Shown here one piece after another: positions 2,746-39,307 of a stretch of 64,000 bases of DNA; positions within the stretch are counted from its first letter, which is position 1; every line of letters begins with the position of its first letter. The position numbers and the translations under genes were made by a program. This DNA is from the human T2T-CHM13v2.0 reference genome, Homo sapiens. Location: assembly GCF_009914755.1 (NCBI RefSeq), contig NC_060945.1; one strand, written 5' to 3'. Under the pieces are notes generated by a model, which saw only the letters and a program-made list of their open reading frames with translations, ran no database searches and was not told the origin of the DNA.

Positions 2746-5700
2746 TTCAGTGGCAGGAGTGCACTCATGGTGTTGTGCATTTATAGTGTTGTACATTCAG
2801 TGGCGGAAGCGCATTCACAGTGTTGTAGATTCAGTGGCGGAAGCGCATTCACGGTGTTGTGCATTCAATGGCGGAAGCGCATTCACCATGTTGTATATTC
2901 AGTGGCGGAAGCGCATTCATAGTGTTCTGCATTCAGTGGCAGAAGCACATTCACGGTGTTGTGCATTCAGTGGCGGAAGCGCATTCATAGTGTAGATTCA
3001 GTGGCGGAAGCGCATTCATAGTGTAGATTCAGTGGCGGAAGCGCATTCATAGTGTTCTGCATTCAGTGGCGGAAGCCCATTCACGGTGTTGTGCATTCAG
3101 TGGTGGAAGCGCATTCATGGTGTTGTGCATTCAGTGGTGGAAGCGCATTCACAGTGTTGTATATTCAGTGGCGGAAGCGCAATCACAGTGTTGTATATTC
3201 AGTGACGGAAGCGCATTCACAGTGCTGTGCATTCAGCAGCAGAAGCGCATTCACGGTGTTGTATATTCAGTGGCGGAAGCGCATTCACCATGTTGTATAT
3301 TCAGTGACGGAAGCGCATTCACGGTGTTGTGCATTCAGTGGCAGAAGCTCATTCACAGTGTTGTGCATAGTTCAGTGGCGGAAGCACATTCACGGTGTTG
3401 TATATTCAGTGGCGGAAGCGCATTCACGGTGTTGTGCATTCAGTGGTGGAAGCGCATTCACGGTGTTGTGCGTTCAGTGGCGGAAGCGCATTCACGGTGT
3501 GCGTTCAGTGGCGGAAGCGCATTCACAGTGTTGTATATTCAGTGGCGGCAGCGCATTCACAGTGCTGTGCATTCAGTGGCGGAAGCGCATTCACCGTGTT
3601 GTATATTCAGTGACGGAAGCGCATTCACGGTGTGCATTCAGTGGCGGAAGCGCATTCACGGTGTTGTGCGTTCAGTGGCGGAAGCCCATTCATGGTGTTG
3701 TGCATTCAGTGGCGGAAGCGCATTCACGGTGTTGTGCATTCAGTGGCGGAAGTGCATTCACAGTGTTGTATATTCAGTGACGGAAGCGCATTCACAGTGC
3801 TGTGCATTCAGTGGCGGAAGCCCATTCACGGTGTTGTGCATTCAGTGGCGGAAGCCCATTCACAGTGCTGCGCATTCAGCAGCGGAAGCGCATTCACAGT
3901 GTTGTATATTCAGTGGCGGAAGCGCATTCACAGTGCTGTGCATTCAGTGGTGGAAGCCCATTCACGGTGTTGTGCATTCAGTGGCGGAAGCGCATTCACA
4001 GTGTTGTATATTCAGTGGCGGAAGCACATTCACCATGTTGTATATTCAGTGGCGGAAGCGCATTCACAGTGTTGTATATTCAGTGATGGAAGCGCATTCA
4101 CAGTGCTGTGCATTCAGCAGCGGAAGCGCATTCACGGTGTTGTGCGTTCAGTGGCAGAAGCGCATTCACGGTGTGCATTCAGTGGCGGAAGCGCATTCAC
4201 CATGTTGTATATTCAGTGACGGAAGCGCATTCACGGTGTTGTGCATTCAGTGGCAGAAGCGCATTCACGGTGTTGTGCGTTCAGTGGCAGAAGCGCATTC
4301 ACAGTGTTGTATATTCAGTGGCGGAAGCGCATTCACCATGTTGTATATTCAGTGGCGGAAGCGCATTCACAGTGTTGTATATTCAGTGATGGAAGTGCAT
4401 TCACAGTGCTGTGCATTCAGCAGCGGAAGCGCATTCATGGTGTGCGTTCAGTGGCAGAAGCGCATTCACGGTGTTGTGCATTCAGTGGCGGAAGCGCATT
4501 CACAGTGTTGTATATTCAGTGGCGGAAGCGCATTCACAGTGTTGTATATTCAGTGATGGAAGCGCATTCACAGTGCTGTGCATTCAGCAGCGGAAGCGCA
4601 TTCACGGTGTTGTGCGTTCAGTGGCAGAAGCGCATTCACGGTGTTGTGCGTTCAGTGGCGGAAGCGCATTCACCATGTTGTATATTCAGTGACGGAAGCG
4701 CATTCACGGTGTTGTGCATTCAGTGGCAGAAGCGCATTCACAGTGTTGTGCGTTCAGTGGCAGAAGCGCATTCACAGTGTTGTATATTCAGTGGCGGAAG
4801 CGCATTCACCATGTTGTATATTCAGTGGCGGAAGCGCATTCACAGTGCTGTGCATTCAGTGGCGGAAGCCCATTCACGGTGTTGTGCATTCAGCGGCGGA
4901 AGCCCATTCACAGTGCTGCGCATTCAGCAGCGGAAGCGCATTCACAGTGTTGTATATTCAGTGGCGGAAGCGCATTCACAGTGCTGTGCATTCAGTGGTG
5001 GAAGCCCATTCACGGTGTTGTGCATTCAGTGGCGGAAGCGCATTCACAGTGTTGTATATTCAGTGGCGGAAGCACATTCACCATGTTGTATATTCAGTGG
5101 CGGAAGCGCATTCACAGTGTTGTATATTCAGTGATGGAAGCGCATTCACAGTGCTGTGCATTCAGCAGCGGAAGCGCATTCACGGTGTTGTGTGTTCAGT
5201 GGCAGAAGCGCATTCACGGTGTGCATTCAGTGGCGGAAGCGCATTCACCATGTTGTATATTCAGTGACGGAAGCGCATTCACGGTGTTGTGCATTCAGTG
5301 GCAGAAGCGCATTCACGGTGTTGTGCGTTCAGTGGCAGAAGCGCATTCACAGTGTTGTATATTCAGTGGCGGAAGCGCATTCACCATGTTGTATATTCAG
5401 TGGCGGAAGCGCATTCACAGTGTTGTATATTCAGTGATGGAAGTGCATTCACAGTGCTGTGCATTCAGCAGCGGAAGCGCATTCATGGTGTGCGTTCAGT
5501 GGCAGAAGCGCATTCACGGTGTTGTGCATTCAGTGGCGGAAGCGCATTCACAGTGTTGTATATTCAGTGGCGGAAGCGCATTCACAGTGTTGTATATTCA
5601 GTGATGGAAGCGCATTCACAGTGCTGTGCATTCAGCAGCGGAAGCGCATTCACGGTGTTGTGCGTTCAGTGGCAGAAGCGCATTCACGGTGTTGTGCGTT

Positions 5701-6863
5701 CAGTGGCGGAAGCGCATTCACCATGTTGTATATTCAGTGACGGAAGCGCATTCACGGTGTTGTGCATTCAGTGGCAGAAGCGCATTCACAGTGTTGTGCG
5801 TTCAGTGGCAGAAGCGCATTCACGGTGTTGTATATTCAGTGGCGGAAGCGCATTCACCATGTTGTATATTCAGTGGCGGAAGCGCATTCACAGTGTTGTA
5901 TATTGAGTGATGGAAGCACATTCACAGTGCTGTGCATTCAGCAGCGGAAGCGCATTCACAGTGTTGTATATTCAGTGGCGGAAGCGCATTCACAGTGTTG
6001 TATATTCAGTGATGGAAGCACATTCACAGTGCTGTGCATTCAGCAGCGGAAGCGCATTCACGGTGTTGTGCGTTCAGTGGCAGAAGCGCATTCACGGTGT
6101 TGTGCGTTCAGTGGCGGAAGCGCATTCACAGTGTTGTATATTCAGTGGCGGAAGCGCATTCACAGTGCTGTGCATTCAGTGGCGGAAGCCCATTCACGGT
6201 GTTGTGCATTCAGTGGCGGAAGCGCATTCACAGTGTTGTATATTCAGTGACGGAAGCGCATTCACGGTGTTGTGCATTCAGCAGCGGAAGCGCATTCACC
6301 ATGTTGTATATTCAGTGACGGAAGCGCATTCACGGTGTTGTGCATTCAGTGGCAGAAGCGCATTCACGGTGTTGTACATTCAGTGACGGAAGAGCATTCA
6401 CGGTGTTGTGCGTTCAGTGGCGGAAGCCCATTCACGGTGTTGTGCATTCAGTGGTGGAAGCCCATTCACAGTGCTGTACATTCAGTGGCAGAAGTGCATT
6501 CGTGGTGTGCATTCAGGGGCGGAAGTGCATTCACGGTATTGTGCATAGTTCAGTGGCAGAAGCGCATTCACGGTGTTGTGCGTTGAGCGGCGGAAACACA
6601 TTCATGGTGTTGTGCGTTGAGCGGCGGAAGCGCATTCACGGTGTTGTGCGTAGTTCAGTGGCGGAAGTGCATTCATGGTGTTGTGCGTTGAGCGGCGGAA
6701 GCGCATTCACGGTGTTGTGCGTTCAGTGGCAGAAGTGCATTCACAGTGTTGTGCATAGTTCAGTGGTGCAAGTGCATTCATGGTGTTGTGCGTAGTTCAG
6801 TGGTGCAGGCACATTCACGGTGTTGTACATTCGGTGATGGAATCACATTCACAGTATTGTGCA
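2746..6863. repeat. 4.1-kb minisatellite, 34-bp unit (ttcagtggcggaagcgcattcacggtgttgtgca), ~120 copies
   Basis: Direct reading; 31- and 37-bp variant units; 1,048-bp higher-order duplication. Confidence 0.98.
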
Positions 6864-33334: not shown

Positions 33335-34213
33335 GTCATATATACCAGAAGTTCTGAGATTGAAGAGCTGAAAGCCACTATTGAAAATCTGCAAGAGAAT
33401 CAGAAACGATTACAAAAGGAGAAAGCAGAGGAAATTGAACAACTCCATGAAGTCATTGAGAAGCTGCAGCACGAGCTGTCCCTCATGGGGCCTGTGGTGC
33501 ACGAAGTCAGCGACAGTCAGGCTGGCAGTCTGCAGAGCGAGCTGCTCTGCTCCCAGGCCGGGGGCCCTCGTGGGCAGGCCCTACAGGGCGAGCTCGAGGC
33601 TGCGCTGGAAGCCAAGGAGGCCCTGAGCCGGCTGCTGGCTGACCAGGAGCGCAGGCACAGCCAGGCCCTGGAGGCCCTGCAGCAGCGCCTCCAGGGCGCA
33701 GAGGAGGCTGCGGAGCTACAGCTGGCTGAGCTGGAGCGCAATGTAGCCCTCAGGGAGGCTGAGGTCGAAGACATGGCCTCCCGGATCCAGGAGTTCGAAG
33801 CGGCCCTGAAAGCAAAGGAAGCGACGATTGCCGAGAGAAATTTAGAAATCGACGCTCTGAACCAGCGGAAGGCGGCCCACTCTGCCGAGCTGGAGGCCGT
33901 CCTGTTGGCCTTGGCCCGCATCCGCCGCGCCCTGGAGCAGCAGCCCCTGGCAGCCGGGGCGGCGCCTCCCGAGCTGCAGTGGCTCCGAGCGCAGTGTGCC
34001 CGCCTCAGCCGCCAGCTGCAGGTGCTGCACCAGCGGTTCCTGAGGTGCCAGGTGGAGCTGGACAGGCGGCAGGCCCGCAGAGCCACAGCTCACACACGGG
34101 TGCCCGGGGCCCACCCACAGCCTCGCATGGATGGTGGCGCCAAGGCCCAGGTCACCGGCGACGTGGAGGCCTCCCATGATGCTGCTTTGGAGCCGGTTGT
34201 CCCTGACCCACAG
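33335..34213 (+). CDS. PCNT: PCNT exon 28 (879 nt) VIYTRSSEIEEL...VVPDPQ
   Basis: ctcttcag|gtc ... cag|gtgggc; long coiled-coil ORF. Confidence 0.97.
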
Positions 34214-34982
34214 GTGGGCTCCCCCCGCGGGCCATGGCAGGGTATTTTTTTTTACTCTCCTTTTCTCCTTTGATGTCAATGACTTCTCTCTGCGCTGGGC
34301 ACTGGGGGCTGCAGTTGTCATGGTGGCTCATGACACAGCGGAGAAAGGGGGCCTGAAGCTCGGGCCAGCCTGGGCCTGTTCCGTGTCAGTACGCAGTGAA
34401 GCTGGGCTGAGGATTTCACTGTTTTGTACCATTTTAAGCTTATCGTTTTAAGCTTTTAAAAACAATTCTTTCTTTCACATAATAGGGACTGTCCAGTGAA
34501 ACGGAGCTCACTATGTGAGGAGGGTCCGCTTAAGCTGCTTCTCTGGTTTCTAACCAAATGGTTTGTCTGTCGATGAGCAGTGCCTGTGTGAGATGTGGCG
34601 AGCGAGCTCTTCTTTTGGAGCTGGAGGCCCTGTAGGGAGTCGTCTTTTAAGGCTTCCACTTGTATTTGAGCAGAACCTTGGGAACTTGGTGCCTACCACC
34701 CCCACACCAGCTGGGTCTTTGTAGAGTGGCTCCCACTCTCAGATGCCCCAGTCCACCTTGCTCTGTGGGGTCGTCCTGGGTCGGGGCAGCTTTCTGCTGG
34801 GTCCTCAGCCCCGTTCCCATGTGGCCTGCTGTGGACCAAGGTGCTCGGCTGTGGATGTCACTGCCACCTCCCTCTGGCATCCCTGCTGGCTGCCGTACTG
34901 GTTCCCAGCTCCAGGCCACCTGAGGGGCAGCCCCAGCAACAGCCTCCTGCATGCTCAGCTTTCCTCTGTCTCCTCTGTCAAG

Positions 34983-35138
34983 GGTGATCTGCAGCCTGTC
35001 CTGGTGACGTTGAAGGATGCACCTCTCTGCAAGCAAGAAGGCGTGATGTCAGTGCTCACCGTCTGCCAGAGGCAGCTGCAGTCGGAGCTGCTCTTGGTGA
35101 AAAATGAAATGCGCCTGAGTCTGGAGGACGGCGGCAAG
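34983..35138 (+). CDS. PCNT: PCNT exon 29 (156 nt) GDLQPVLVTL...EDGGK
   Basis: ctgtcaag|ggt ... aag|gtgtgg. Confidence 0.93.
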
Positions 35139-35541
35139 GTGTGGGGAGGGGGGAAGGCGCGAGGTCCCCCCGGGAGAGGCTGGACACGCGGCAGCAAGGT
35201 GTGGGGAGCGGGGAAGGCACAAGGCCCACCCGGGAGAGGCTGGACACGTGGCAGCAAGGTGTGGGGAGCGGGGAAGGCGCGAGGTCCCCCCGGGAGAGGC
35301 TGGACACGCGGCAGCAAGGTGTGGGGAGCGGGGAAGGCACGAGGCCCACCCGGGAGAGGCTGGACACGCAGCAGCAAGGTGTGGGGAGGGGGAAGGCGTG
35401 AGGCCCCCCTGGGAGAGGCTGGACACGCGGCAGCAAGGTGTGGGGAGCGGGGAAGGCACGAGGCCCACCCGGGAGAGGCTGGACACGCGGCAGCAAGGTG
35501 TGGGGAGGGGGAAGGCGTGAGGCCCCCCTGGGAGAGGCTGG
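35122..35541 (+). repeat. G-rich 60-bp minisatellite x ~7 that includes the exon-29 donor
   Basis: caag|gtgtgggga recurs with GT at 35139, 35199, 35259, 35319, 35379, 35438, 35498. Confidence 0.97.
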
Positions 35542-35983
35542 GTGCAGAACATGTGGGTCTTGCCCTGGGCAGAGGCGGGTATTCTGCTGAGGTGAGGAGC
35601 ACAGTCCGTGCCTGCAGTGACATGTTCTCTGAATCCTTTCTGTTCTGTAACGAGCTGTCCATAACTGTTGTGAAATTTCGTACGTGCTTCATTTAAGCCA
35701 CTCTGTAGAAACAATCAGTTGGGTTTTTTTCTTGTAATTGATCCAAATGGATTTAACTGTGCTCGAGGGTTAGTCCTGGTTTGTCTTTTCATGGGAGGAC
35801 CACATCGCCCCCGTGGGCCTCACCTCAGCTCAGGACTTTGATGGCCAGCGTCTGTTTTACTTTGAAAGGCCTCAGATTTATTCTTGTAATCTGTTCACCT
35901 CACTCCATATTGTCACTTGAAAAAAAGCTGGCACTTCTTTTCCCCGGGGAAGGAGGTTGCACCTTGACCATCTCAAATTGTAG

Positions 35984-36436
<453 letters not shown>

Positions 36437-36497
36437 TAGATGGCACCTTTTGATGCACTGTCTGCACCTCGCCTCCTCCAGTCCAAGGCCCAGCGCA

Positions 36498-37038
36498 GCC
36501 TCCCTGGACACACAGCCACCCACCCTTCTCCTCCTTCTCCTCTGGGACACACATCTGTCCACCCTCCTCCTCCTCCTCCTCCTGGACACAGTCGCCCACC
36601 CTCCTCCTCCTCCTCCTCCTGGACACACAGCCGCCCACTCTCCTCTTCCTCCTCCTTCTCGACACACAACCACCCACCCTGCTCCTCCTCCTCCTCCTCC
36701 TGGACATGCAGCCGCCCACCCTCCTCCTCCTGGACACGCAGCCGCCCACCCTGCTCCTCCTCCTCCTCCTGGACACACAGCCGCCCACTCTCCTCCTCCT
36801 GGACATGCAGCCACCCACCCTGCTCCTCCTCCTCCTCCTGGACACACAGCTGCCCACACTCCTCCTCCTGGACACGCAGCCGCCCACCCTCCTCCTGGAC
36901 ACACAGCCGCCCACTCTCCTCCTCCTGGACATGCAGCCGCCCACCCTGCTCCTCCTCCTCCTGGACACACAGACACCTACCCTCCTCCTGCTGGACACAC
37001 AGCCACCCACCCTGCTCTTCCTCCTCCCCCTCCTCCCT
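36498..37038. repeat. Pyrimidine-rich compound repeat: cctggacacacagccgcccaccct plus variable (cct)n
   Basis: Direct reading, ~14 units. Confidence 0.93.
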
Positions 37039-37486
37039 GCTGTTTGCTAAATGTGCCCCAACTACTCCTCCAGGCTCTGAAACCCAGAGGCTCTAACACC
37101 AGAAGTGCTGGGCAGGTGTTTTATGGTCTCTAGGGTGGCACGGAAGCATGCTTGGTGCTGAAGCCTGCTGAGACCTGGGCTCACCCGAGCCCCTCGCAGC
37201 CCTCGTGAGTGTCCCGCACGTCGCTGGGACGTTTCTTGCATGAGTGCAGGTGCCGCCTGTTCCTGGGTCCACACTGCGTGCACCTCATTGGCGTTTAGAG
37301 CCTGAAAGATTCTTAATTCCACAGAAATCAGGGAAGGATGGGCCTAGGCCCGCAGTTCTGAGGAGACCCATGAACCTGGTTCGTGTGCTTGTCATGTGCT
37401 CTCGGGAAATACATCCTGTGTGGAGAGCCCTTCGCATCTCCTGCGGCAAACAGTCTTGGGGCCCTCATGACAGGAACGTTTCTTTG

Positions 37487-37488
<2 letters not shown>

Positions 37489-37519
<31 letters not shown>

Positions 37520-37806
37520 AGACAGAGTCTCGCTCTGTCGCCCAGGCTGGAGTGCAGTGGCGAGATCTTGAGATCTTGGCTCACTGCAACCTCCACCTCC
37601 TGGGTTCAAGCAATTCACTGCCTCAGCCTCCCGAGTAGCTAGGATTACAGGCACCCGCCACCATGCCTGGCTAATTTTTGTATTTTTAGTAGAGACAGGG
37701 TTTCACCATTTTGGCCAGGGTGGTCTCGAACTCCTGACCTCGTGATCCACCTGTCTCAGCCTCCCAAAATGCTAGGATTACAGGCGTGAGCCACTGCACC
37801 CGGCCC
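37489..37806 (-). mobile_element. Alu (S-like)
   Basis: poly-T plus reverse consensus. Confidence 0.94.
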
Positions 37807-38191
37807 AATTTTTTGAATTCTTAAGAGAAAGCTCAGCCCTGCCTGCCAAATTCTTAGAAGTTACACACACAGAAACTCCAAATTCATCACATAAACCACA
37901 ATTTTGTGTTTTCGGTGCTCAGATATAGAACCTTCCCATCCTTTTTCCCTTGTATGAAGCTTGTGTCCTCAATCACCGCAGAAATAGGTTATGACAGTTG
38001 CCTTTTAAGCAAGGAGATGTAAGCCTTGGTTCTGTTTCTCATAGAATTAAATAAACTTGAAATGTGCAGGGCTCATTGTGGAATCACCCGAGTGCTCCGA
38101 AACTCCCTGAAATCCACTCATTAACACCAGACAGGTGCGACTCCTGGTGAGCCAGGTATTCCACCGTGCACCTGTTCTGTTTCACCTGCAG

Positions 38192-38962
38192 GGTAAAGAA
38201 AAAGTACTGGAAGATTGTCAGCTGCCGAAGGTCGATCTCGTAGCTCAGGTGAAACAGCTTCAGGAAAAACTGAACCGTTTGCTGTATTCCATGACCTTCC
38301 AGAATGTGGATGCTGCCGACACCAAATCTCTGTGGCCCATGGCCTCAGCACACCTGTTGGAGAGCAGCTGGAGTGATGATTCCTGTGACGGAGAAGAGCC
38401 TGACATATCACCCCACATAGACACATGTGATGCCAATACAGCCACGGGGGGTGTAACTGATGTTATCAAAAATCAGGCCATAGACGCGTGTGATGCCAAT
38501 ACAACCCCAGGGGGTGTAACTGATGTTATCAAAAATTGGGATTCCTTGATACCAGATGAAATGCCAGATTCTCCCATTCAAGAAAAATCAGAATGTCAGG
38601 ACATGTCTCTTTCTTCACCGACCAGCGTACTTGGTGGCTCCCGCCACCAGAGCCACACTGCAGAGGCTGGGCCCCGGAAGAGCCCGGTCGGGATGCTGGA
38701 CCTGTCTTCCTGGAGCTCCCCTGAGGTCCTCAGGAAGGACTGGACCCTGGAGCCCTGGCCCAGCCTCCCCGTGACACCCCACTCAGGAGCCCTGAGCCTG
38801 TGCAGTGCCGACACATCCCTGGGGGACAGGGCGGACACCTCGCTGCCACAGACCCAGGGGCCGGGGCTGCTTTGTTCCCCAGGCGTGTCTGCAGCAGCGC
38901 TGGCACTGCAGTGGGCCGAGTCTCCGCCGGCTGACGACCACCATGTGCAGAGGACGGCTGTG
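38192..38962 (+). CDS. PCNT: PCNT exon 30 (771 nt) GKEKVLED...VQRTAV; includes the separase site ExxR (R2231, codon 38732-38734)
   Basis: cctgcag|ggt ... gtg|gtaggt; SWSSPEVLR motif at codon 2231 by my numbering. Confidence 0.96.
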
Positions 38963-39307
38963 GTAGGTGCCTGCTCTGCTCCCAGGCCTGCTGTTCCCGT
39001 GGGAATGTGGTCTGCCCGGCGCCACGGCAGCTGCCATTGTTTGTTCACCTCCTGACAGCACACACCTCGCAGTGCTGTGTGGGGCCAGCTCTGCAGGACT
39101 GGCATCATGGGCGCATTTAGATTATTTCAGTTGTTCAGGTATTTTTAAAATGCCTGAGATGCATTTGCCTGCCTCAGACATACCCTGGGCATGCTTCTCC
39201 ACTGACGCTGACTCCAACGGGCATAGCCCAGACACGTCTTCGTGTGTGATGGGCATAGGGTTCTTTGTCCAGAATGGTTTTTTAGATTTATTTTTAGGAA
39301 TGCTTCC

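What the first reader, a model, noticed from the sequence alone, without database searches (positions are those of the whole stretch)
35122..35541. Splice-donor ladder: a VNTR amplified the exon-29 5' splice site in frame
Seen: the repeat unit straddles the exon/intron border, so the identical donor context gcaag|gtgtgggga occurs seven times (GT at 35139, 35199, 35259, 35319, 35379, 35438, 35498). The first four extra donors are 60 nt apart with no stop, so using them adds 1-4 copies of a 20-aa Gly/Arg/Trp-rich unit (VWGAGKARGPPGRGWTRGSK). After a 59-nt unit the last two donors (+299, +359) shift frame and would predict NMD. Each weak donor is followed by G-runs, which are known hnRNP F/H enhancers and G-quadruplex-prone. 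Inference: a genotype-dependent rheostat in which repeat number and the position of 59-nt units set the mix of normal, repeat-extended and degraded PCNT mRNA. It could also rescue mutations of the native donor. The insert would add a basic RG/aromatic low-complexity tract to a PCM scaffold protein.
Basis: partly seen in the sequence, partly recalled or inferred. Interest (0 to 1): 0.8.

Follow-up and report, generated by a model that had tools for sequence, protein, structure and literature searches.

The report
Minisatellite copying a PCNT splice donor
A 60-base tandem repeat that begins inside a pericentrin exon copies that exon's splice-donor signal six more times into the intron, a long-known kind of arrangement in which the extra sites usually stay silent unless the first one is lost.

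Summary
The sequence observation is real. A GC-rich minisatellite lies at 35129-35541, with period 60 (6.9 copies) or a 119-nt dimer. It starts in the last nucleotides of the PCNT exon 34983-35138. The 14-mer GCAAG|GTGTGGGGA occurs exactly seven times. Donors at +60 to +240 are in frame. Donors at +299 and +359 shift frame and give a stop 49 nt into the next exon.

Several descriptors weaken on testing:
- The open frame comes from base composition: units 1-4 have no stop in any of six frames.
- No canonical G-quadruplex motif is present.
- The donor is mid-rank (11th of 28 in the window), not clearly weak.
- Copy-number polymorphism was not testable.

The architecture is a known class: minisatellites whose first monomer spans an exon-intron border (F7, CBS, IFI6, LMNB2, PDGF; PMC1557585). 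I found the F7, CBS and IFI6 arrays in the same genome. In that class the extra sites are silent (3 of 5), or only the two nearest are used (2 of 5). In F7 they are activated when the first site is mutated.

No RNA data could be consulted, and the RefSeq table lists no alternative exon end here. My best reading is a tolerated minisatellite with a dominant first donor and latent in-frame back-up donors. The "rheostat" is unsupported. No paper on this PCNT array was found.

The parts
34983..35138 (+). PCNT coding exon (156 nt, phase 0 at both ends) whose last ~10-22 nt form the first, partial monomer of the array
   Evidence: Coordinates come from the hub's RefSeq table. The exon contains no G>=3 run.
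35139..35140 (+). Annotated (authentic) donor GT, context GGCGGCAAG|GTGTGGGGAG
   Evidence: plus the hub annotation.
35129..35541 (+). GC-rich, G-skewed minisatellite of 6.9 x 60 nt. It is organised as alternating A/B unit types (a 119-120-nt dimer). Units 5 and 7 are identical 59-nt forms.
   Evidence: TRF; unit table and identity matrix; composition 73% GC and 50% G.
35199..35380 (+). Four in-frame copies of the donor, with GT at 35199, 35259, 35319 and 35379. They would add 20, 40, 60 or 80 residues.
35438..35499 (+). Two frame-shifting copies of the donor, with GT at 35438 and 35498 (+299 and +359 nt). They would give a stop 49 nt into the next exon.
35542..35565 (+). Decayed start of an eighth unit. 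The donor position reads AACA|TGTGGGT (AT at 35553 in place of GT), so it is not a donor.
   Evidence: Alignment of the 3' flank to the unit.
35592..35593 (+). Best donor-like GT in the intron by the window's own weight matrix (GAG|GTGAGG, 10.11 bits against 8.79 for the repeated site). The extension would be 453 nt, in frame and open (151 residues). There is no evidence of use.
   Evidence: 142 intronic GTs scored; frame 0 has no stop up to 35591.
38192..38962 (+). Next coding exon and its acceptor, 3053 nt downstream of the authentic donor
   Evidence: Hub annotation.

Best explanation
This is a subtelomeric GC-rich minisatellite whose first monomer spans the exon-intron border of a PCNT exon. 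The donor sequence is therefore reiterated six times in the intron, and a seventh copy has decayed.

I infer that the array is a tolerated by-product of local tandem-repeat turnover, not a regulatory device. I also infer that the first (annotated) donor is used almost exclusively.

Proposed reasons, all inferred:
- The first donor is the first 5' splice site met downstream of the exon's acceptor. This fits exon definition and the 5'-to-3' 'oriented scanning' shown for F7.
- It is the only copy with G-runs downstream and none upstream. For copies 2-7, the G-runs of the preceding unit would lie inside the would-be exon. From recalled literature, G-runs act as silencers in that position.

The copies are probably functional but latent. 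If the first GT were lost, the +60 copy would most likely take over. That would give an in-frame +20-residue insertion, alongside some in-frame skipping of the 156-nt exon. Low-level use of the +60 site in normal tissue is possible.

What is shown: the array, its register with the exon, the identity of the sites, the reading-frame consequences, and the existence of the class. What is inferred: which sites are used.
For: Architecture:
- Searches show the array, the seven identical 14-mers and the unit structure.

The class and its behaviour (PMC1557585; abstract, introduction, results section 6 and discussion read):
- In F7 (37-bp unit) only the first site is used. The copies are functional, and the next one is activated when upstream ones are mutated. 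Exon skipping rises with distance.
- In LMNB2 (100 bp) and PDGF (81 bp) only the authentic site is used.
- In IFI6 and CBS (31 bp) the authentic site plus two copies are used.

The same architecture found in this genome:
- F7: 37 bp x 6.1, with CGCGGTGCTGG|GTGGGT reiterated.
- CBS: 31 bp x 17.8, starting at an exon ending ...KQFKQ|GTACCC.
- IFI6: 12 bp x 24.8, unit GTGCAG|GTAAGG.

G-run asymmetry: 0 G>=3 runs in the exon against 3 per unit in the array.

Annotation: the RefSeq table given with the finding has no alternative exon end at this exon.

Context: at TRF score >=150 the window holds 14 separate arrays covering about 13.6% of its bases (summed by hand). An array touching an exon is therefore not improbable here.

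No sign of coding constraint on the units:
- All six frames are open in units 1-4.
- 4 of 7 variable sites are synonymous against 27% expected, which I judged not significant.
Against: - No transcript data of any kind were available, so site usage is not shown.
- The PCNT +60 site lies within the distance over which CBS copies are reported to be used. Unit length therefore gives no clean rule.
- The seven sites are identical over 14 nt, and each is followed by the same G-runs. From recalled literature these enhance an upstream donor, so copies 2-7 are not intrinsically disabled.
- Recalled work on duplicated strong donors (Eperon and colleagues) found the downstream site favoured. That is the opposite of what I propose.
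- Frame-shifted products would be removed by NMD and so be under-represented in annotation.
Confidence: 0.65

Rival explanations
1. The copies are used at appreciable levels, and repeat number and the placement of 59-nt units set a genotype-dependent mix of normal, +20 to +80-residue and NMD-targeted PCNT mRNA.
For: - Sites are identical over 14 nt, with in-frame 60-nt spacing and a frameshift after the 59-nt unit.
- Three G-runs follow each site.
- Precedent exists for use of the two nearest copies in IFI6 and CBS (PMC1557585 introduction).
Against: - No alternative exon end appears in the RefSeq table.
- Three of five class members use only the first site, and the other two use only the two nearest copies, never a long ladder.
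- In F7, 50 additional subcloned RT-PCR products examined for each transfection experiment showed no other splice variant.
- Openness of the frame is compositional.
- Polymorphism was not shown.
- No PCNT repeat-splicing association turned up in the papers and supplements I could search.
Confidence: 0.1
2. The array is a functional intronic splicing enhancer. Its G-runs (hnRNP F/H) and repeated U1-binding sites would help recognition of a mid-strength first donor, so copy number would tune exon inclusion and not donor choice.
For: - G-run density is 52 per kb against 15 per kb in the window, with two runs within 16 nt of each donor.
- The donor has only 5 of 9 strict consensus matches.
- The enhancing role of intronic G-runs comes from recalled literature (McCullough and Berget; Xiao et al. 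2009), which was not read here.
Against: - In F7, the authors report excluding an autonomous regulatory element in the neighbouring intronic sequence (section heading; discussion).
- The donor ranks 11th of 28 in this gene, so it is not in special need of help.
- The RNA fold is less stable than shuffles (z = +2.44), so there is no structural element.
- No binding data were available.
Confidence: 0.15
3. The whole array plus its flank is an alternative coding extension. Splicing from the stronger donor-like site at 35592 would add 151 residues in frame.
For: - 35592 GAG|GTGAGG is the best-scoring of 142 intronic GTs.
- The extension is 453 nt, and frame 0 has no stop.
Against: - No annotation supports it.
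- One frame in three is in phase by chance.
- Stops are rare in this composition: only two TGA in the array.
- The exon would have to read through seven donor sites.
Confidence: 0.03

Closest known systems
F7 intron-7 37-bp minisatellite (Borensztajn et al. 2006, PMC1557585)
   Same: - The first monomer spans the exon-intron border.
- About 11 nt of exon tail plus the donor are reiterated.
- There are about 6 copies in this genome, against 6.9 for PCNT.
- The sequence is GC-rich and the location subtelomeric (1.2 Mb from the contig end).
- The copies are identical to the authentic site.
   Different: - The F7 unit is 37 nt, so use of the next copy shifts the frame and causes disease. The PCNT unit is 60 nt and in frame.
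- The F7 unit has one GGG, inside the donor itself. The PCNT unit has three G-runs.
- Usage is experimentally known for F7 and unknown for PCNT.
CBS exon-13/intron-13 31-bp VNTR, c.1444_1467+7(16_21) (PMC2630376; Lievers et al. 2001, seen only as a citation)
   Same: - A tandem array starts in the exon tail and repeats the donor.
- It lies on the same chromosome arm.
- It was found here as 31 bp x 17.8.
   Different: - The CBS copies are not all donors. The second unit reads CAG|AT.
- The unit is not a multiple of three.
- Polymorphism is documented for CBS (16-21 copies) and not for PCNT.
- Two copies are reported as used.
IFI6 (6-16) exon-2/intron-2 minisatellite
   Same: - The unit length is a multiple of three, so the donor copies are in frame.
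- The array starts at the exon border.
- It was found here as 12 bp x 24.8.
   Different: - IFI6 has a 12-nt unit and a near-consensus donor, CAG|GTAAGG. PCNT has a 60-nt unit and AAG|GTGTGG.
- Constitutive use of the two nearest copies is reported for IFI6 and is not known for PCNT.
LMNB2 100-bp and PDGF 81-bp intronic minisatellites
   Same: They have long units spanning the donor, and only the authentic donor is used. I predict the same behaviour for PCNT.
   Different: I did not examine these two arrays in sequence. Their details come only from the introduction of PMC1557585.

Membership tests
Minisatellite whose first monomer spans an exon-intron boundary (F7 / CBS / IFI6 / LMNB2 / PDGF class) | Head-to-tail tandem array of a 10-100-nt unit, in several copies | tested here: met
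   TRF: period 60, 6.9 copies, 90% matches.
Minisatellite whose first monomer spans an exon-intron boundary (F7 / CBS / IFI6 / LMNB2 / PDGF class) | The first monomer contains the last exon nucleotides and the authentic donor | tested here: met
   The array starts at 35129 and the annotated exon ends at 35138 (and hub table). Homology reaches about 22 nt into the exon.
Minisatellite whose first monomer spans an exon-intron boundary (F7 / CBS / IFI6 / LMNB2 / PDGF class) | [quoted passage not shown] | tested here: met
   7 exact copies of GCAAG|GTGTGGGGA.
Minisatellite whose first monomer spans an exon-intron boundary (F7 / CBS / IFI6 / LMNB2 / PDGF class) | Copy number is polymorphic in the population (a VNTR in the strict sense) | not testable with these tools
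   Only one haplotype is held. PCNT does not appear in the VNTR supplements I could search.
Minisatellite whose first monomer spans an exon-intron boundary (F7 / CBS / IFI6 / LMNB2 / PDGF class) | Only the first site, or the first plus the two nearest copies, is used in mRNA | not testable with these tools
   There was no RNA data. The RefSeq table lists no alternative exon end here.
In-frame alternative-donor ladder (IFI6-like) | Donor copies are spaced by a multiple of three with an open frame | tested here: met
   +60, +120, +180 and +240 are in frame and open. All six frames are open, however, so the frame itself is not evidence of coding.
In-frame alternative-donor ladder (IFI6-like) | Transcripts or proteins carry the extra units | tested here: inconclusive
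   A protein search with the 80-residue repeat peptide found no hit at E <= 0.01. Only proteins of 232-2000 residues were candidates, so full-length PCNT isoforms were outside the search.
Canonical G-quadruplex-forming sequence | Four runs of G>=3 separated by short loops | tested here: not met
   0 matches with loops up to 7, 12 or 21 nt. The third-to-fourth run spacing is 28 nt.
G-run intronic splicing enhancer (hnRNP F/H type) | G>=3 runs within a few tens of nt downstream of the donor | tested here: met
   Runs start 4 nt and 9-11 nt downstream of each donor GT. Protein binding and effect were not testable.

The most novel reading that the evidence does not exclude
In some tissues or genotypes the in-frame copies (+60 to +240) are really used. 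PCNT would then exist as a ladder of isoforms carrying 1-4 copies of a basic Gly/Arg/Trp-rich 20-residue unit (net charge +19 over 80 residues). Alleles that move a 59-nt unit forward would divert part of the output to NMD. This would be a repeat-length splicing rheostat in a centrosome scaffold gene.
Probability: 0.08. Interest if true: 0.6.

Novelty: new member of a known kind. Interest (0 to 1): 0.3.

Why it matters
**Variant interpretation.** PCNT loss causes MOPD II (recalled). A +1/+2 variant at this donor would normally be read as loss of function. Here, both likely outcomes are in frame: use of the +60 copy (+20 residues) and skipping of the 156-nt, phase-0 exon (-52 residues). Such variants may therefore be hypomorphic or benign. 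The F7 precedent shows that take-over by the next copy really happens.

**A natural test case.** This array has seven identical donors, and its reading frame reports which one was used. The array could help resolve the disagreement between 'first site wins' and 'site nearest the acceptor wins' models of 5' splice-site choice.

**A practical point.** RNA-seq aligners can misplace junction reads among identical repeat copies. The authentic and copied sites differ at position -5 (G versus A), and this is what distinguishes them.

Tried and rejected

**Literature searches that found nothing on this array.**
- PCNT+VNTR gave 4 papers, none relevant by title or abstract.
- pericentrin+minisatellite gave 1 irrelevant paper.
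- PCNT+tandem repeat+sQTL gave 0 papers.
- PCNT+intron 29/exon 29/splice listed 15 of 30 papers, none on this site.
- PCNT+A5SS gave 4 papers. Their PCNT passages concern exon 19 skipping or antibody staining.

**Supplements searched for 'PCNT' with 0 occurrences.**
- PMC10078293: 10 files searched, 1 file not searchable.
- PMC11701250.
- PMC11975116.
- The PMC12993456 supplement was too large to read. It may list PCNT splicing events.

**A recollection I could not use.** I recalled that a large VNTR study described a repeat carrying splice donors in CUL4A. The searches did not find that paper, so I do not rely on it.

**Protein search.** The repeat peptide found no hit among proteins of 232-2000 residues. 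This is uninformative for full-length PCNT. A second attempt used a longer reference so that PCNT-length proteins would be candidates.

**RNA structure.** The fold of 35080-35600 is less stable than 100 of 100 shuffles (z = +2.44), so I rejected occlusion of the donors by structure.

**Other checks.**
- Rfam found no family in 34000-39000.
- Coding constraint on the units: 4 synonymous of 7 variable sites against 27% expected. I estimate a binomial P of about 0.09, worked by hand and not by any search, so this is not significant.
- The 120-nt dimer is found only at this locus in the genome (the tool notes that such counts are lower bounds).
- Donor strength by MaxEnt or SpliceAI could not be computed.

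Full report
**What is in the sequence**

Tandem Repeats Finder reports a single array at 35129-35541. It can be read as 6.9 copies of a 60-nt unit (90% matches) or as 3.5 copies of a 119-nt unit (95% matches).

I cut the array at each donor G and compared the units:
- Units alternate between two types. Units 1 and 3 are 98% identical, as are units 4 and 6.
- Units 5 and 7 are identical 59-nt forms that have lost one G from a G-run.
- The array is therefore a dimeric higher-order repeat, and its last expansion copied a 119-nt block.
- Past 35541 the flank still aligns to the start of a unit. At the donor position it reads AACA|TGTGGGT, which is a decayed eighth copy without a GT.
- Upstream, the last 23 columns of the exon align to the unit tail at 17 positions. 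That is far less similar than the intronic units are to each other. I infer that the intronic copies have been homogenised among themselves.

The 120-nt dimer matches nowhere else in the genome, although that tool warns its counts are lower bounds.

- The 14-mer GCAAG|GTGTGGGGA occurs exactly seven times in the window, with GT at 35139, 35199, 35259, 35319, 35379, 35438 and 35498.
- Joining the 28 annotated coding exons gives one open frame. The exon 34983-35138 starts and ends in phase 0.
- The +60 to +240 sites add 20 to 80 residues with no stop.
- The +299 and +359 sites shift frame and reach a stop 49 nt into the 771-nt next exon. By the usual 50-55-nt rule this predicts NMD.
- None of the other 27 annotated donors recurs downstream.

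**Which descriptors do not survive testing**

- Open frame: units 1-4 have no stop triplet in any of six frames. The whole array has only two TGA. Openness is therefore a matter of composition.
- Coding constraint: seven sites vary among the 60-nt units. Four are synonymous, against 27% expected. By my hand estimate this is not significant.
- Donor strength: the donor is not clearly weak. It matches 7 of 9 degenerate and 5 of 9 strict consensus positions. It ranks 11th of 28 by a leave-one-out weight matrix built from this window's donors. That is a small and crude reference set, and MaxEnt and SpliceAI were not available.
- G-runs: these are abundant, with 21 in 403 nt.
- G-quadruplex: the canonical four-run motif is absent even with 21-nt loops.
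- RNA structure: the region folds less stably than all 100 shuffles (z = +2.44).
- Rfam finds nothing in 34000-39000.
GAG|GTGAGG at 35592 scores best of the 142 intronic GTs. It would give a 453-nt, in-frame, open extension. Nothing indicates that it is used.

**What kind of thing this is**

A full-text search led to Borensztajn et al. 2006 (PMC1557585). I read its abstract, introduction, first results section and discussion.

The paper describes exactly this architecture as a known class: minisatellites whose first monomer spans an exon-intron boundary, so that the donor is reiterated in the intron. It lists five members:
- F7 (37 bp): only the first site is used.
- LMNB2 (100 bp): only the authentic site is used.
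- PDGF (81 bp): only the authentic site is used.
- IFI6: the authentic site plus the two nearest copies are used.
- CBS (31 bp): the authentic site plus the two nearest copies are used.

[quoted passage not shown] Knocking out sites one after another activates the next available copy, and exon skipping rises with distance. For each transfection experiment, 50 additional subcloned RT-PCR products showed no other splice variant.

PMC2630376 (passages) names the CBS array c.1444_1467+7(16_21). That is 24 exon nucleotides plus 7 intron nucleotides, in 16-21 copies.

**Three class members found in the same genome**

| Gene | Array found | Detail |
|---|---|---|
| F7 | 37 bp x 6.1 | 11 nt of exon tail plus TGG\|GTGGGT repeated six times |
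| CBS | 31 bp x 17.8 | on the minus strand, starting at an exon that translates ...GKVIYKQFKQ; the second copy reads CAG\|AT |
| IFI6 | 12 bp x 24.8 | unit GTGCAG\|GTAAGG |

The F7 array lies 1.2 Mb, the CBS array 3.6 Mb and the PCNT array 0.3 Mb from their contig ends.

The PCNT window is itself dense with minisatellites. At TRF score >=150 there are 14 separate arrays covering about 13.6% of the window (my sum). The PCNT array is the only one that touches a splice site.

**How it most likely works (inference)**

The first donor should dominate, for two reasons:
- It is the first 5' splice site downstream of the exon's acceptor. This fits exon definition and the F7 'oriented scanning' result.
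- It is the only copy with G-runs after it and none before it. The exon has no GGG, while each unit has three. For copies 2-7, the preceding unit's G-runs would sit inside the extended exon.

The second reason rests on recalled work that I did not read here. In that work, exonic G-runs and silencers placed between competing donors favour the upstream site (Wang and Burge laboratories). Intronic G-runs enhance the donor upstream of them (McCullough and Berget; Xiao et al. 2009).

The copies are probably latent, as in F7. Because the unit is 60 nt and the exon is 156 nt in phase 0, both likely consequences of losing the first GT would be in frame.

**What argues against my reading**

- I had no RNA data.
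- The +60 site lies within the distance at which CBS copies are reported to be used.
- The copies share the same downstream enhancer-like G-runs.
- Recalled experiments with duplicated strong donors favoured the downstream site.
- Frame-shifted products would be hidden by NMD.

I put about 0.65 on 'first donor dominant, copies latent'. I put about 0.1 on an appreciable ladder, and 0.15 on the array acting as an intronic enhancer. The enhancer reading is not exclusive of the first.

**Novelty**

The searches run here found no paper or readable supplement mentioning this PCNT array. One supplement file of PMC10078293 could not be searched, and the PMC12993456 supplement could not be read.

The kind is long known, so I file this as a new member of a known kind. 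Its one distinguishing trait is an in-frame unit combined with 59-nt variants. Whether it is a true VNTR, and whether any copy is used, remains open.

Noticed in passing
window 36503-37031: A second minisatellite lies in the same intron, with units of about 30-39 nt of the form CCTCCTCCT...CTGGACAC(G/A)CAGCC.CCCAC. It shares the 13-mer CTGGACACGCAGC, on the same strand, with unit 4 of the donor array. None of 191 random 529-nt window segments shared more than 11 nt with the array. The two arrays may have a common origin or share a minisatellite core.
   Followed up: partly
window 35141-35153 (minus strand): Unit 1 carries one perfect match to the 13-mer CCNCCNTNNCCNC, recalled as the human recombination-hotspot (PRDM9) motif. 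The window has 10 matches against 3.2 expected. The other units miss the motif by one base, judging by eye from the sequences. A link to array instability is speculative.
   Followed up: partly
window 2777-6863: A very large minisatellite (34-nt unit, about 120 copies, 4.1 kb) begins 109 nt after the PCNT exon ending at 2668. It is the largest repeat in the window and a likely length-polymorphic intronic array.
   Followed up: no
window 38416-38536: A 63-nt tandem duplication (1.9 copies, 91% matches) lies inside the coding exon 38192-38962. This is an in-frame 21-residue duplication within PCNT coding sequence.
   Followed up: no
window 35592: A donor-like site, GAG|GTGAGG, scores above the annotated donor. 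It would give an in-frame, open 151-residue extension covering the whole array. There is no evidence of use.
   Followed up: partly
L007 5140-5300 (minus strand; CBS array in the same genome): In the CBS 31-bp array of this genome the authentic site is CAG|GTACCC, but the second unit reads CAG|ATGCGC. It therefore lacks a GT, so not every copy is a potential donor.
   Followed up: no
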